Source of the DNA: a virus
Taxonomy: Duplodnaviria > Heunggongvirae > Uroviricota > Caudoviricetes
Virus record (IMG/VR): IMGVR_UViG_2908567220_000004
Direction: 5' to 3' (one strand)
DNA length: 35,453 bases
The position numbers were made by a program, and so were the translations under genes. Under the pieces are notes generated by a model. That model was not told the DNA's origin and searched no databases. It was given only the letters and a program-made list of their open reading frames with translations. Shown piece after piece: positions 15,367-33,993 of the stretch. The first letter of the stretch is position 1; each line of letters starts with the position of its first letter.

Positions 15367-15387
15367 ATACCCCCAAAAGTACCCCCA
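15367..15387. repeat. Putative integrase arm-type site (copy 1)
   Basis: ATACCCCCAAAAGTACCCCCA; near-identical ATACCCCCATAAGTACCCCCA at 33877-33897, both just inside the element ends. Confidence 0.4.
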
Positions 15388-15529
15388 AACAATTTTCTCT
15401 CACCACCATTTGCACATAAAGCAGCCATGTACAACTGGTAGTTGAACAGGCGGGTAGACCGTTCGTTCAGTAAATACCTGATATTTCCGCCAACGAGAAA
15501 TTGCGTTGGCTGGCAGAGTGCAAATTTGC

Positions 15530-15730
15530 ACGATGACCTAACCCATTGATTCTTTCGAAAACCTGCAATGCAGGAAATGGGGGGAGGTAAGCCTAACCCA
15601 TTGATTATTTCGCCCCCCCCCATTGGGGGATGTCGGGAAAGTAAGCCTAAACCATGAGTAGACCTACGAAATTTTCGTAACCCCCTACGAAATTTTCGCA
15701 GTTTAATTACTCGCCAGATTAATCGCTAAC
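15530..15730. repeat. Repeat-rich att-proximal region (three CTAACCC..TGAT..TTTCG.AAACC copies and palindromic CTACGAAATTTTCG motifs)
   Basis: Direct repeats at 15538, 15583, 15725 and palindromic CTACGAAATTTTCGTA at 15661-15676 with a second copy at 15685-15700. Confidence 0.45.
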
Positions 15731-15835
15731 CCGCTGATATTTTCGGAAACCTCAATTTGAGGAATGTACCTAAAACCATTTTTATAGCTCCGCTCCCTTC
15801 AAAGTGAAGGGTAATTTGCCAAAACAGAGAGAGCA

Positions 15836-16123
15836 TTACTGTCTCTGGCAATCTTTATCGCGATAACGCCTGAAGTACCCTCTCGCTTCCTCATCCATAC
15901 CAAGAGCCGAATGAGTTCGCTTAACTGCCTGTCTTAAATCTCCGAATCTGTCTGTAGTTGCTGGTGGGCGTGCCGCCTTACGGATACATTCAGAGCGCCT
16001 GTTTGCTGCATGTTCACGTTCTTTATCGCCATTTGCCAGCATCATGACTTCTGCCCATCGTGCGGCAGCTCTCCGGTATAGCCCTTTTGACTCCAGCTCT
16101 TCAGCTTTCCTGTCCCTTATCAT
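15836..16123 (-). CDS. PerC/Pch-family transcriptional activator
   Basis: 95-aa ORF MIRDRKAEELESKGLYRRAAARWAEVMM.. resembling PerC/Pch regulators. Confidence 0.7.
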   Translation of the reverse strand: MIRDRKAEELESKGLYRRAAARWAEVMMLANGDKEREHAANRRSECIRKAARPPATTDRFGDLRQAVKRTHSALGMDEEARGYFRRYRDKDCQRQ

Positions 16124-16152
16124 TTCTGCCTCTCAGATTATATAGATAAGCA

Positions 16153-16267
16153 AAAAGGTGTTGGTTCAGTTGGTTCAGTTGGTTCAATTTGTAAAGAGCG
16201 TTGTTTTTATTGTGTTTTTTCTAAAATATTGAACCAACATCAACTCATTTTGAACCAACAAAAAGTG
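16153..16267. repeat. Iteron cluster (GTTGGTTCA x3 direct, then two inverted copies); crr/ori-like
   Basis: AAAAGGTGTTGGTTCAGTTGGTTCAGTTGGTTCAATTTG at 16153-16191 is the exact reverse complement of 24710-24748. Confidence 0.7.
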
Positions 16268-16610
16268 TCCGTGAACTAACACTCTGTCAAATAGTCACTA
16301 CATATATGAACGGTGAAGACTAAATCCGCCAGCAAATAGCTTATATAGCACCGCTTTATGCCGCAGTTATGCTGGAACAGTAATCATTTCACAGAACCGC
16401 CTAACTACTATATGGCACCTGCTAAAAAGCACATCAGCCTAGTCAGTTGATCGGTGCATGGATATCCTAACAATTCAACTATATAACGTGATCTCCCATG
16501 TCGATCTACTGTCATGCAATGATTAACAAACACATAGACACATCTGCTTGGCGCATTGATTAATCACTGATCATCCATCAGGATATGCGAACCACCGTCA
16601 CCAGGTTAGG

Positions 16611-31555: not shown

Positions 31556-31567
31556 TTTCAGTCTCCG

Positions 31568-31999
31568 TTAGGCGGCGTTAAACGCGTTCGGGTAGAGTTT
31601 CAGAATGTCGGCAATTTCCTGCTGAGAAAGTCCGTTGTGATCATTTATGTTCGCAAGATGGTTAACATGAGTGATCACTTTCAGAACATCACCACGGCAG
31701 GAGAAACGGTAGCGAAGGTGTGTTCCGATACCATCAGGATTCTTTTCGTCGATACGCTCCAGAGTGATTCCAAGCTGGCGTTCTAACTCTGTTGCATAGT
31801 TACGACCAGAAGACAGACGGCAGTAGCGAAGAATGTCATTTTCTGTCCATCCCTCTATACCAGTACGCAGCATATAGACTCGGGCACGATGCTTTTTCGG
31901 TGTGCGCTTTGGTGCTTGAAGGGATTTTGTAAGGGGCGTAATATCAGATACGCGAATATCTGAATTAGCCGCCTGTAATGGGCGGTTTTTCTTTTCCAT
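31568..31999 (-). CDS. Hypothetical protein
   Basis: 143-aa ORF, TAATG-coupled to alpA. Confidence 0.55.
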   Translation of the reverse strand: MEKKNRPLQAANSDIRVSDITPLTKSLQAPKRTPKKHRARVYMLRTGIEGWTENDILRYCRLSSGRNYATELERQLGITLERIDEKNPDGIGTHLRYRFSCRGDVLKVITHVNHLANINDHNGLSQQEIADILKLYPNAFNAA

Positions 32000-32202
32000 C
32001 AGGCCACCTCGTCTCTAGATTCTAATATACACTTCTCAATCCATTCATCTATTTCAGACTCAACAAAAGCAATTGCCCGACTTCCAATTTTTACCTGTTT
32101 AGGGAACCTCCCCTGACTAATAAGACGATAAATCCATGCTTTGCTATAACCAGTTCGCCTTTGAACTTCAGAGAGACGAATTAATGAATTGTAATTAGCC
32201 AT
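31999..32202 (-). CDS. alpA: AlpA-family transcriptional regulator/excisionase
   Basis: 67-aa ORF LIRLSEVQRRTGYSKAWIYRLISQGRFPKQVKIGSRAIAFVESEIDEWI typical of AlpA/Vis HTH. Confidence 0.85.
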   Translation of the reverse strand: MANYNSLIRLSEVQRRTGYSKAWIYRLISQGRFPKQVKIGSRAIAFVESEIDEWIEKCILESRDEVA

Positions 32203-32629
32203 TTATTAATATCCTGTACTAATGACGCAATAACCCCCTCCTGCAACGAATGGCGAGAGTTTTATTTGCGTCAAATGTCGAATACGCCAAAGACCACAAT
32301 ATGAAAAACATATTGCGGTCTTTTATAAAAGATAGTCAGATTGTTTTGGTTTGTTTGCTCCACAAGGGTAGAGCTACCCTGCATTTCGGCAGGATCACGC
32401 TATTAGGCGTGACATCCAGTAGTTTTAAAGAACAATTGCGCTTTGTCAGCGCCAAAGCCTGTTAAAGAACATTCCGCTTTTCAGCAGCGTAGAAGGCTCA
32501 ATACACCTTCGTTTATAAAAGAGCGATTGCCCTTCTCCAGGGCTAACTGTTAAATAGCAATCCTCTGTGAGTTTTTATCAATCTACTCCCCTATACTTTA
32601 GTAAACCTCTGTATACTTGTCCAGTTGTT

Positions 32630-33844
32630 TCATGCGTGTTTTTCAAACACCATATGCACCACATTTCCGCCATGCTCGAGAGAATCCATATAGTCGGCAT
32701 ACCATTGAAGCATCTCCCGCCGTCCATCCAGATATTGCGCATGGTTGTATGTGCCACGAATTGAGTTCTTATCAACGTGAGCGAGCTGCGTTTCTATCCA
32801 CGCGGTGTTATAGCCCTGCTCATGCAAAATCGTGCTCATAGTGTGTCGGAACCCATGACCAGTTACACGTCCAGCGTAGCCAATGCGCTTAAACACTTGG
32901 TTTATGCTGGCCTCACTCATTGTTTTCCTTGGATCATTGCGCCCGGGAAACATAAGAGGGTAATTGCCTGTTATTTCTCTAATCTTCCCAATAAGCGAAA
33001 GAGCCTGCTCAGACAATGGCACAATATGAGGCCGCCGCATTTTCATACGTGAAGCGGGTATCTCCCATATAGCCTTGTTGAAATCAATTTCATCCCATAA
33101 TGCGCCACGTAGTTCGCCAGTTCGCAAGCCGGTGATAATCAGTAGACGAGCCGCCATAACAACCAATGCGCTTCCTGAGTAACTGGACAATGCCTTGAAA
33201 AAATCAGGTAATTCTTTGGTCGTAAGGAAAGGGTAATGATTAGATTCATGGCCTTGCATCGCGCTAGTAAGGTCTGGTGCAGGGTTATACTCTGCGCGAC
33301 CAGTGACTATTGCATAGCGGAAAACTTCCCCGCACCGCTGCCTCACTTTTTTGGCTTTTTCTGTCGCACCGCGCCCCTCGATGCGCCGCAGCACATTCAG
33401 AAGTTCAAGTGGTTTGATTTCGGCGATTGGTTTTTTGCCAATGTAAGGGAACACATCTTTGTTGAAGGCTTCGAGGATGTCTGAAGCATAACCAGCAGAC
33501 CATTTTTTTAATTTGCTGCTGTGCCACTCAAGGGCAATATCTTTGAAGGTGTTGTTTAACTGCGTTTCCCGGGCAATCTTTTCCTCTCGTTTCGCTTCCA
33601 TCGGATCGATACCACCAGCGATACCTCTTTTCGCATCTTCACGTTTTGCCCGAGCATCGGCTAGAGTAACCTCAGGATACACACCTAGTGCCAATAGCTT
33701 CTCTTTACCAGCTACACGATATTTAAGTCGCCAGTATTTACCTCCATTAGGTTTTACCAAGAGATACAAACCGCCACCATCGGCCAGCTTGTAAGCCTTC
33801 TCTTTTGGCTTGGCTGTGTCTATTTGACGGGCATTGAGTTTCAC
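32630..33844 (-). CDS. int: Tyrosine integrase, P4 type
   Basis: 404-aa ORF MKLNARQIDTAKPKEKAYKLADGGGLYLLVKPNGGKYWRLKYR.. with C-terminal catalytic region (HGFRHTMSTILHE..YNH). Confidence 0.9.
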   Translation of the reverse strand: MKLNARQIDTAKPKEKAYKLADGGGLYLLVKPNGGKYWRLKYRVAGKEKLLALGVYPEVTLADARAKREDAKRGIAGGIDPMEAKREEKIARETQLNNTFKDIALEWHSSKLKKWSAGYASDILEAFNKDVFPYIGKKPIAEIKPLELLNVLRRIEGRGATEKAKKVRQRCGEVFRYAIVTGRAEYNPAPDLTSAMQGHESNHYPFLTTKELPDFFKALSSYSGSALVVMAARLLIITGLRTGELRGALWDEIDFNKAIWEIPASRMKMRRPHIVPLSEQALSLIGKIREITGNYPLMFPGRNDPRKTMSEASINQVFKRIGYAGRVTGHGFRHTMSTILHEQGYNTAWIETQLAHVDKNSIRGTYNHAQYLDGRREMLQWYADYMDSLEHGGNVVHMVFEKHA

Positions 33845-33876
33845 TTGGGGGTACCTCCACTAAACCGAACAGCAAA

Positions 33877-33993
33877 TACCCCCATAAGTACCCCCATCTG
33901 ACCGTAGATTTTGAGGGACTTTAGTAGACGTCAAAAGACGAACGGGGCTTTAATACGCGGATTATAAGGGGTTTTGAAAGACTTTAGTAGACT
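33877..33993. repeat. Putative integrase arm-type sites between int and thrW
   Basis: ATACCCCCATAAGTACCCCCA (copy of 15367-15387) and two direct GACTTTAGTAGAC repeats at 33915-33928 and 33980-33993. Confidence 0.4.

What the first reader, a model, noticed from the sequence alone, without database searches (positions are those of the whole stretch)
15367..33993. Direct-repeat arm-type site candidates just inside both ends of the P4-like element
ATACCCCCAAAAGTACCCCCA (15367-15387) and ATACCCCCATAAGTACCCCCA (33877-33897) are in direct orientation about 60 and 110 bp inside the two att cores. Two GACTTTAGTAGAC copies lie between int and the tRNA. In the excised circle these would flank the attP core like integrase arm-binding sites.
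Basis: partly seen in the sequence, partly recalled or inferred. Interest (0 to 1): 0.45.

Follow-up and report, generated by a model that had tools for sequence, protein, structure and literature searches.

The report
Integrase arm sites of thrW island
The repeated TACCCCCA motifs just inside both ends of this E. coli tRNA-Thr island are almost certainly the accessory ("arm") binding sites of its P4-type integrase, laid out as in phage P4 itself, so the finding is correct but ordinary.

Summary
They lie 62 and 111 bp inside the two att cores. TACCCCCA occurs 6 times in the window against 0.47 expected.

The integrase has a Pfam Arm-DNA-bind_3 N-domain. The layout (a 12-bp-period doublet at -51/-39, an inverted copy at -9, and a distal doublet 55-62 bp from the core) matches the "attP arm sequence repeat" features annotated in phage P4 (NC_001609), whose motif differs by one base. 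It also matches the experimentally characterised IntS arm sites of KplE1. Across 79 related loci the copies change in concert (GGGGGTA, GGGGGCA, TGTATAG and others). The motif class follows the Int N-domain, and residue 50 predicts it perfectly. It does not follow the catalytic domain or the tRNA target.

The two GACTTTAGTAGAC copies are probably not Int arm sites. They vary independently of arm class and track the AlpA subtype, so they are more likely excisionase (RDF) boxes.

Verdict: a new member of a known kind, of low interest.

The parts
15288..15305 (.). Distal att core: a partial copy of the tRNA-Thr 3' end, AATGGTGC-GATAATAGGA, missing one C relative to the tRNA.
   Evidence: direct comparison with 34008-34026. 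The same 1-nt gap is present at the distal junction of the related element in Citrobacter, L010. The neighbouring SfIV-like prophage's own attP has the full sequence.
15322..15334 (-). IHF-consensus-like sequence (TATCAATGTATTT, 1 mismatch) in the AT-rich spacer between the distal core and the doublet. Weak candidate only.
   Evidence: The count over the whole window is not above chance (50 against 40 expected).
15368..15387 (-). Distal arm doublet: two copies of TGGGGGTA as read on the int-sense (-) strand, at 15368-15375 and 15380-15387, period 12, 62 bp from the core.
   Evidence: Homologous distal doublets of the matching motif class are found in 9 of 9 elements whose distal end is available.
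33846..33853 (+). Fifth, inverted arm-site copy. The + strand reads TGGGGGTA; the int-sense strand reads GGAGG-TACCCCCA-A-GTG. It lies between the Shine-Dalgarno sequence and the int start codon.
   Evidence: The copy is invariant in 22 aligned TA-class loci. P4 has an annotated arm repeat at the same place, 3915-3926.
33877..33896 (-). Int-proximal arm doublet: TGGGGGTA CTTA TGGGGGTA on the int-sense strand, at -51/-39 from the int start and 111 bp from the core.
33905..33929 (-). Box 3 (ATCTAC, 33905-33910) and box 2 (GTCTACTAAAGTC, 33917-33929) on the int-sense strand. Candidate AlpA/RDF binding boxes.
   Evidence: The boxes are conserved in relatives. The box class goes with the AlpA subtype, not with the arm class.
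33980..33992 (-). Box 1 (GTCTACTAAAGTC), 17 bp from the tRNA 3' end and 63 bp (start to start) from box 2.
34008..34026 (.). Proximal att core, AATGGTGCCGATAATAGGA, overlapping the 3' end of tRNA-Thr(CGT) (34010-34085, - strand).
32630..33844 (-). P4-type tyrosine integrase of 404 aa. Residues 3-88 (about 33581-33838) form the arm-DNA-binding domain.
   Evidence: Pfam Arm-DNA-bind_3 1.4e-28, Phage_int_M 1.3e-34 and Phage_integrase 1.8e-26. The N-domain matches PDB 3JU0 (E 1.9e-27) and 3JTZ (E 1.3e-20), which I recall as the HAI7 and HPI integrase arm-binding domains; the core-binding domain matches CPS-53 IntS, 2KJ8, at 1.2e-35.
31999..32202 (-). AlpA-family helix-turn-helix protein of 67 aa, the candidate recombination directionality factor.
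   Evidence: Pfam Phage_AlpA 7.4e-20.

Best explanation
The five TGGGGGTA copies are the arm-type binding sites of the island's own heterobivalent P4-family integrase. There are two in a 12-bp-period doublet at the far end, two in an identical doublet upstream of int, and one inverted copy abutting the int start codon. The N-terminal domain of Int (residues about 1-88) would bind these sites. The core-binding and catalytic domains would bind the 19-bp core in the 3' end of tRNA-Thr. When the element excises, the two ends join into an attP with this order: distal doublet, 62 bp AT-rich spacer, core, 111 bp carrying three GTCTAC boxes, proximal doublet, 22 bp, inverted copy, int. Int molecules bridging arm and core sites, helped by DNA bending, would assemble the intasome for integration into thrW and for excision. 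The three proximal copies sit over the 5' leader and ribosome-binding region of int. Int bound there should also repress its own gene, as reported for IntS of KplE1 and for P4 Int. The GTCTAC boxes are most likely bound by the AlpA-family protein acting as directionality factor. What is shown here: the sequence anatomy, conservation, concerted variation, association with the N-domain, and identity of layout with P4 and KplE1. What is inferred: physical binding, bridging, autoregulation and the role of AlpA.
For: - **Enrichment:** the motif and the 21-mer are far above chance.
- **Arm-binding domain:** Int carries Pfam Arm-DNA-bind_3. Its N-domain matches PDB 3JU0 and 3JTZ, integrase N-terminal fragments that I recall as the solved HAI7 and HPI arm-binding domains.
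- **P4 has the same layout:** the P4 record NC_001609.1 annotates 'attP arm sequence repeat' features. These are an inverted copy overlapping the annotated int start, a 12-bp-period doublet, the core 113 bp further on, and a second doublet 54 bp beyond the core. The P4 motif is GGGGGCA, one base from GGGGGTA. Offsets from the conserved MKLNARQ start codon are -49/-37/-9 in P4 and -51/-39/-9 in the window. The doublet-to-doublet distance is 209 bp in P4 and 212 bp in the reconstructed attP here.
- **KplE1 has the same layout:** GGGTAAAA repeats occupy the same positions on attL and attR. That system's IntS arm-type sites and TorI sites were characterised and repress intS (PMC2951348).
- **Relatives:** 67 of 79 loci pass an automatic test for a doublet, 66 of them also with an inverted copy, and most of the rest show the layout by eye. 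In 22 TA-class loci the invariant columns are the repeats themselves, while the spacers vary.
- **Concerted variation:** all copies in one element share GGGGGTA, GGGGGCA, TGTATAG, GGGGGCC or GGGGGCT. Distal doublets match the proximal class in 9 of 9 elements, spanning four classes.
- **Link to the N-domain:** Int residue 50 predicts the class perfectly. L goes with TA in 42/42, R with CA in 21/21, M with TATAG in 9/9, and K with CC/CT in 2/2. This is the top column of the whole protein, with MI/H 0.98. P4 Int has R at the equivalent position and CA arms.
- **Tree comparison:** the arm class needs 4 changes on the N-domain tree, which is the minimum, but 12 on the CB+CAT tree.
Against: - No binding data exist for this element.
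- The proximal sites lie only 10-50 bp from the codons of the N-domain. Physical linkage alone could therefore explain part of the N-domain/proximal-arm association.
- The classes are monophyletic on the N-domain tree, so the perfect residue-50 correlation rests on about four independent changes.
- A simple sigma-70 scan found no consensus promoter between the tRNA and int, so overlap of the arm sites with Pint is not demonstrated.
- The distal core lacks one base, which leaves present-day recombination competence untested.
Confidence: 0.88

Rival explanations
1. The TGGGGGTA repeats are operators for AlpA or another element-encoded regulator rather than for Int.
For: An AlpA-family gene lies next to int. 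RDFs typically bind direct repeats about one helical turn apart (abstract of PMC7498355, listed).
Against: AlpA type 1 (RTGYSKAW) is found with TA, CA and TATAG arm classes alike, so the arm class does not follow AlpA. The arm class follows the Int N-domain. A different repeat family, the GTCTAC/GTCAAC boxes, is the one that follows the AlpA subtype. KplE1, whose RDF TorI belongs to a divergent subtype, still has the same doublet layout.
Confidence: 0.04
2. The repeats act only as transcriptional operators for int autoregulation and play no part in intasome assembly.
For: Three of the five copies cover the int leader and ribosome-binding site. Negative autoregulation through arm sites is documented for IntS and reported for P4 Int (PMC2951348).
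Against: The distal doublet is 18.5 kb from int in the integrated state. It is kept at a constant 54-62 bp from the distal core in nine elements. That spacing makes sense for recombination and not for repression of int in the prophage state. The two roles are not exclusive.
Confidence: 0.05
3. The repeats are replication iterons bound by the island's primase/helicase, like the ori and crr repeats of P4.
For: The element encodes a DUF927/Toprim primase. In P4 the crr repeats lie close to the distal arm.
Against: P4 annotates its ori iterons as separate repeat features at other coordinates. KplE1 has the same doublet layout but no annotated primase gene. The motif class follows the Int N-domain. 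A separate repeat-rich stretch at 15537-15770 is a better candidate for such a role.
Confidence: 0.02
4. The two GACTTTAGTAGAC copies are a second class of Int arm site, rather than RDF boxes.
For: They are direct repeats within the int-proximal arm and are conserved in relatives.
Against: The box class is uncoupled from the arm class: TCTAC boxes occur with TA, CA and TATAG arms. Box class is coupled to AlpA subtype: 32 of 32 TCTAC loci with a detected AlpA have type 1, 9 of 9 TCAAC loci have type 2, and there are no cross-cases. No matching boxes occur on the distal arm. Their position corresponds to the TorI sites of KplE1.
Confidence: 0.15

Closest known systems
attP arm repeats of satellite phage P4 (annotated in NC_001609.1; from memory, first described by Pierson and Kahn 1987)
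   Same: Same integrase family (Arm-DNA-bind_3 N-domain). Same layout: a 12-bp-period doublet about 50 bp upstream of int, an inverted copy abutting the start codon, the core about 112 bp from the doublet, and a second doublet 54-62 bp beyond the core. All doublet copies are in one orientation. The motif differs by a single base, GGGGGCA against GGGGGTA.
   Different: The target is tRNA-Thr (thrW) instead of tRNA-Leu (leuX), so the core differs. Int residues 29 and 50 are L/L here and E/R in P4. The element lacks sid, psu and delta and carries other cargo.
KplE1 (CPS-53) recombination module: IntS arm-type sites and TorI sites on attL/attR (PMC2951348)
   Same: The int gene sits next to the tRNA with its promoter region inside attL. 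Arm sites lie just upstream of the start codon, RDF sites between them and the core, and a 12-bp-period doublet about 57 bp from the distal core. The IntS core-binding domain is the best PDB match to this Int. Int and the RDF both repress int.
   Different: The arm motif is GGGTAAAA and Int residue 50 is I. The proximal arm has one direct and two inverted copies. The RDF gene torI lies at the far end of the element, whereas alpA here lies about 430 bp downstream of int.
Lambda Int arm-type sites (P1, P2, P'1-P'3)
   Same: The principle is the same: a heterobivalent integrase whose N-domain binds arm sites on both sides of the core, with accessory bending proteins and an RDF that sets directionality. 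This is established knowledge, summarised in PMC2951348.
   Different: The N-domain family differs; according to PMC8138268 the DUF4102 type has an extra strand and helix. In lambda, int is transcribed towards attP rather than away from it, so arm sites do not overlap the int promoter.

Membership tests
Arm-type sites of P4-family (Arm-DNA-bind_3 / DUF4102) tyrosine integrases | The cognate integrase has an N-terminal arm-DNA-binding domain in addition to the core-binding and catalytic domains. | tested here: met
   Pfam PF13356 1.4e-28, PF22022 1.3e-34 and PF00589 1.8e-26. PDB 3JU0 1.9e-27 and 3JTZ 1.3e-20.
Arm-type sites of P4-family (Arm-DNA-bind_3 / DUF4102) tyrosine integrases | Repeats lie on both sides of the attP core, that is just inside both ends of the integrated element, and are unrelated in sequence to the core. 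| tested here: met
   The doublets lie 62 and 111 bp inside the cores. TGGGGGTA is unrelated to the core TCCTATTATCGGCACCATT.
Arm-type sites of P4-family (Arm-DNA-bind_3 / DUF4102) tyrosine integrases | Number, spacing and orientation match the annotated P4 attP arm repeats. | tested here: met
   Offsets are -51/-39/-9 here and -49/-37/-9 in P4. The distal doublet is 62 bp from the core here and 54 bp in P4. Doublet-to-doublet distance is 212 against 209 bp.
Arm-type sites of P4-family (Arm-DNA-bind_3 / DUF4102) tyrosine integrases | Sites are conserved in relatives and co-vary with the integrase N-domain. | tested here: met
   67 of 79 loci pass the automatic doublet test. The invariant columns are the repeats. 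Residue 50 predicts the class in 74 of 74 sequences. The class needs 4 changes on the N-domain tree and 12 on the CB+CAT tree. The distal class matches the proximal class in 9 of 9 elements.
Arm-type sites of P4-family (Arm-DNA-bind_3 / DUF4102) tyrosine integrases | The Int N-domain binds the sites physically, and the sites are required for recombination. | not testable with these tools
   This needs EMSA or footprinting and att-site mutagenesis.
RDF (AlpA / Vis / TorI) binding boxes | Direct repeats lie in the int-proximal arm between the core and the arm sites, and an RDF gene is present in the element. | tested here: met
   Boxes at 33980-33992, 33917-33929 and 33905-33910, with start-to-start spacings of 63 and 21 bp. 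alpA matches PF05930 at 7.4e-20.
RDF (AlpA / Vis / TorI) binding boxes | The box sequence co-varies with the RDF rather than with Int. | tested here: met
   TCTAC boxes go with AlpA type 1 in 32 loci and TCAAC boxes with type 2 in 9 loci, with no cross-cases. TCTAC boxes occur with three different arm classes. Caveat: there are few independent lineages; the type 2 group forms at least two clades.
RDF (AlpA / Vis / TorI) binding boxes | AlpA binds the boxes and is required for excision. | not testable with these tools
   This needs EMSA and an alpA deletion or overexpression with attP/attB PCR.
Canonical P4-like satellite | The element has sid, psu and delta capsid-size and transactivation genes alongside int, alpA/vis and an alpha-type primase. 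| tested here: not met
   int, alpA and a DUF927/Toprim primase are present. No sid, psu or delta appears in the Pfam or PHROG scans of the ORFs scanned or in the RefSeq annotation of the identical element in ABU 83972. A true P4-like satellite at the same thrW site in strain MS1170 has psu and delta annotated by name.

The most novel reading that the evidence does not exclude
The arm-site specificity of P4-family integrases may be set by a very small recognition code. Residue 50 on a predicted beta-strand would be the main determinant, with L reading GGGGGTA, R reading GGGGGCA, M reading TGTATAG, K reading GGGGGCC/CT and I reading GGGTAAAA; residue 29 would be secondary. The N-domain together with its arm sites would also be exchanged as a module independently of the core-binding and catalytic domains and the tRNA target. 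That exchange would give mutually orthogonal intasomes to elements that compete for, or sit in tandem at, the same tRNA gene, as the TA-type and CA-type elements at thrW do. I found no paper stating this, but my literature access was limited.
Probability: 0.4. Interest if true: 0.45.

Novelty: new member of a known kind. Interest (0 to 1): 0.2.

Why it matters
It matters little for basic understanding, because arm-type sites in this layout have been annotated in P4 for decades and were dissected in KplE1. There are three practical gains.

- The ends and the attP of a widespread thrW island can now be drawn to the base.
- The GTCTAC boxes are separated from the Int sites.
- The family-wide comparison gives a simple, testable rule linking one N-domain residue to the arm motif. 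That rule could help predict which co-resident islands can cross-mobilise each other, and it could guide design of orthogonal integrase/att pairs.

Tried and rejected
- **Int promoter:** a sigma-70 scan of 33700-34150 and of 15250-16200 found no consensus promoter. I could not place Pint relative to the arm sites.
- **IHF sites:** the consensus scan gave 50 matches against 40 expected over the window, which is not significant. The match at 15322-15334 remains a weak candidate only.
- **AlpA boxes upstream of alpA:** I looked for GTCTAC-type boxes in 32203-32630 and found none that is convincing.
- **HPI/HAI7 structure paper:** Szwagierczak et al. 2009, which might define the DNA-contact residues, is not held.
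- **N-domain model:** the single-sequence AlphaFold model has low confidence (pLDDT 56). I used it only for strand positions.
- **Do the 21-mers belong to the neighbouring prophage's attP?** Rejected. SfIV-type DNA ends at the core, and the sequence from 15311 onward recurs next to a different neighbour in ABU 83972.
- **Is the element a decayed Sf6/HK620-type P22-like prophage?** Those phages share the KplE1 recombination module (PMC2951348). Rejected because the gene order and orientation differ, the element has alpA and a primase, and it recurs as one unit in three contexts.
- **Extra doublet at 18215/18226:** the 1-mismatch pair TACCCACA/TGCCCCCA has no core nearby and is probably chance.
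Full report
**Setting**

The window is the proA-thrW region of Escherichia coli. The right end matches proA and tRNA-Thr at 98-99% identity in thousands of genomes. ARAGORN finds one tRNA, tRNA-Thr(CGT), at 34010-34085 on the minus strand.

Immediately inside the tRNA lies a 404-aa integrase (32630-33844, minus strand). It has the Pfam domains Arm-DNA-bind_3, Phage_int_M and Phage_integrase. A partial copy of the tRNA 3' end sits at 15288-15305, so the element spans about 18.7 kb.

To its left is a second, unrelated prophage. Its 387-aa integrase ends at 15275 and it is 96-97% identical to Shigella phages SfIV, SfII and SfV. SfIV's own attP carries the full tRNA 3' segment right after int. 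The tandem order implies that this prophage integrated first and the element studied here second.

**The observation**

- Both 21-mers exist and are in the same orientation: 15367-15387 and 33876-33896.
- Each 21-mer is a doublet of TACCCCCA with a 12-bp period.
- The 8-mer occurs six times in the window against 0.47 expected, and no shuffle reached six. The 21-mer pattern is expected 0.00 times.
- The doublets lie 62 bp and 111 bp inside the cores.
- A fifth copy, inverted, lies at 33846-33853. On the int-sense strand the sequence reads GGAGG-TACCCCCA-A-GTG, so this copy sits between the Shine-Dalgarno sequence and the start codon.
- GACTTTAGTAGAC occurs exactly twice, at 33917-33929 and 33980-33992. 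A degenerate third box lies at 33905-33910.

**Comparison with relatives**

I fetched 79 loci encoding integrases 98-61% identical to this one, from many Enterobacterales genera and several tRNA targets. Read in the int sense, nearly all have the same upstream layout:

- the tRNA 3' end;
- three short GTCTAC-like boxes;
- a doublet M-N4-M about 51 bp before the start codon;
- an inverted copy of M 8-10 bp before the start codon.

An automatic test finds the doublet in 67 of 79 loci, 66 of them also with an inverted copy. Most of the others show the layout by eye. In an alignment of 22 loci of the GGGGGTA class, the invariant columns are the two doublet copies, the inverted copy and the boxes, while the spacers vary freely.

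The motif is not the same everywhere, but within each element all copies agree:

| Class | Motif | Sequences |
|---|---|---|
| TA | GGGGGTA | 42 |
| CA | GGGGGCA | 21 |
| TATAG | TGTATAG | 9 |
| CC | GGGGGCC | 1 |
| CT | GGGGGCT | 1 |

**The far end**

Where the element is short enough, or a complete genome was available, a second doublet of the same class and orientation lies 54-62 bp inside the distal partial tRNA copy.

- L010, L030, L031 and L036 have GGGGGTA, and L069 has GTGTATAG.
- A genuine P4-like satellite at thrW in E. coli MS1170 has GGGGGCA.
- Counting the window, P4 and KplE1 as well, the distal class matches the proximal class in 9 of 9 elements, covering four motif classes.

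**Known systems with the same layout**

The GenBank record of phage P4 annotates 'attP arm sequence repeat' features:

- an inverted copy at 3915-3926, overlapping the annotated int start;
- a doublet at 3942-3965;
- the core at 4078-4097;
- a second doublet at 4151-4174.

The P4 sequence reads GGGGGCA in all of these copies. Offsets from the conserved MKLNARQ start codon are -49/-37/-9 in P4 and -51/-39/-9 here. The two doublets are 209 bp apart in P4 and 212 bp apart in the attP reconstructed from this window.

In KplE1 (CPS-53) of E. coli K-12, GGGTAAAA repeats occupy the same places on attL. A 12-bp-period doublet lies about 57 bp from the core on attR. For that system, IntS arm-type sites and TorI sites on attL were characterised, and both proteins repress intS. 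The same paper reports that P4 Int represses its own gene by binding DNA at similar positions (PMC2951348).

**Which protein reads the motif**

Over a 74-sequence alignment of full-length integrases, the column most informative about motif class is residue 50, in the context KEK-L-LALG:

| Residue 50 | Arm class | Sequences |
|---|---|---|
| L | GGGGGTA | 42/42 |
| R | GGGGGCA | 21/21 |
| M | TGTATAG | 9/9 |
| K | GGGGGCC / GGGGGCT | 2/2 |

Its normalised mutual information is 0.98. Most of the other strongly class-predictive columns (residues 29, 31, 37, 40 and 53 among them) also lie in the N-domain. P4 Int has E and R at the positions equivalent to 29 and 50, together with CA-type arms. IntS has I at position 50.

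On a neighbour-joining tree of residues 1-90 the arm class needs four changes, which is the minimum for five classes. On a tree of residues 100-404 it needs twelve. For example, L030 and L080 are nearly identical in the catalytic part but differ in both N-domain and arm motif. The arm motif therefore travels with the N-domain, not with the catalytic domain or the tRNA target.

A low-confidence single-sequence model places residues 29, 40 and 50 on three adjacent predicted beta-strands. The N-domain matches PDB 3JU0 and 3JTZ, which I recall as the solved HAI7 and HPI arm-binding domains.

Two caveats apply:

- The proximal sites are physically adjacent to the N-domain codons, so linkage contributes to the association.
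- The number of independent class changes is small.

The matching distal doublets, kilobases away, are the part that linkage cannot explain.

**The 13-mers**

The GTCTAC boxes behave differently from the arm repeats. They occur with all three main arm classes. A variant, GTCAAC, replaces all three boxes in other elements.

Box class goes with the subtype of the AlpA-family protein encoded next to int:

- TCTAC boxes go with the RTGYSKAW type in 32 loci.
- TCAAC boxes go with the SDKWIY type in 9 loci.
- There are no cross-cases.

The window encodes an AlpA protein at 31999-32202 (Pfam Phage_AlpA 7.4e-20). The boxes sit where KplE1 has its TorI sites. From my memory of Cali et al. 2004, which I could not check here, this is also where P4 Vis binds two boxes between int and the core. 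I therefore assign the boxes to the directionality factor rather than to Int, with moderate confidence.

**Mechanism**

The best-supported reading has five steps.

1. Int binds the five arm sites through its N-domain.
2. Int binds the core in the tRNA 3' end through its other domains.
3. In the excised circle the two doublets flank the core at unequal distances, and Int bridges arm and core sites to build the intasome.
4. AlpA on the boxes, perhaps with IHF in the AT-rich distal spacer, bends the arms and sets directionality.
5. Occupation of the three proximal sites shuts down int.

Only the anatomy and the comparative signals are shown here. Binding and function are inferred.

One further inference concerns the base missing from the distal core. 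It is also missing in the related Citrobacter element but is present in SfIV attP. It therefore belongs to the element, which places strand exchange within the last six or so bases of the tRNA gene.

**Verdict**

The feature is a new instance of a long-known arrangement, so interest is low.

The family-wide link between one N-domain residue and the arm motif, and the modular exchange of the N-domain with its arm sites, is the only part that may go beyond what is published.

Noticed in passing
window 19347-24005 (- strand), within the element 15306-34008: The island has int, alpA, antA, ash and a DUF927 primase, but no capsid, tail, terminase, sid, psu or delta genes. It nevertheless carries a full P22-type gp14/gp7/gp20/gp16 ejection-protein module (PHROG hits; 93.5% nt identity to Escherichia phage vB_EcoP-720R6). 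The same element is present in E. coli ABU 83972 and in an Escherichia sp. A related one, with gp14 at 78% and gp7 at 56% identity, sits at another tRNA in Buttiauxella (L070). It looks like a PICI-like satellite that brings its own ejection proteins. I found no paper on this.
   Followed up: partly
window 15537-15770 and 15663-15698: Three roughly 55-bp units, each made of CCTAACCCATTGATT..TTTCG followed by a small hairpin, plus two exact copies of CCTACGAAATTTTCG. They lie about 150 bp beyond the distal arm doublet, where P4 has its cis replication region (crr). They may be a replication or packaging site.
   Followed up: partly
window 15288-15305; L010 about 16620; L069 about 17860: The distal att core lacks one base relative to the tRNA (TCCTATTATCG-CACCA). 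The same gap is present in the related Citrobacter element, and a similar one-G gap is present in L069. SfIV attP has the full sequence. This suggests that the gap is carried by the element and that strand exchange occurs in the last few bases of the tRNA gene.
   Followed up: partly
window 1-15275: An SfIV/SfII/SfV-like prophage (96-97% identity over about 60% of the stretch) is integrated in tandem at the same thrW site. Its P22-type 387-aa integrase ends 12 bp before the shared core, and an exact IHF consensus lies at 15273-15285.
   Followed up: partly
L001 19800-19990 (E. coli ABU 83972) and L082 32880-33040 (E. coli MS1170): The vat pathogenicity island next to the element has a truncated Arm-DNA-binding integrase pseudogene. 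Its upstream arm keeps the inverted copy and the boxes, but its doublet has decayed. In ABU 83972 the junction core is also partly deleted.
   Followed up: no
window 33610-33617: A one-mismatch copy (TACCACCA) in direct orientation lies 227 bp into int. P4's record annotates a sixth arm repeat at a similar intragenic position (about +290; 3621-3632). Here the sequence encodes the conserved GGID motif, so coding constraint cannot be separated from a binding role.
   Followed up: no
window 18215-18233: A pair of one-mismatch copies, TACCCACA and TGCCCCCA, 11 bp apart in an intergenic stretch, with no tRNA-like core nearby. Probably chance.
   Followed up: partly
L026, L029, L047, L054, L055, L080 (upstream of int): Some relatives have a longer proximal arm, with the doublet at about -84 and two to four inverted copies. 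The number of arm sites therefore varies within the family.
   Followed up: no
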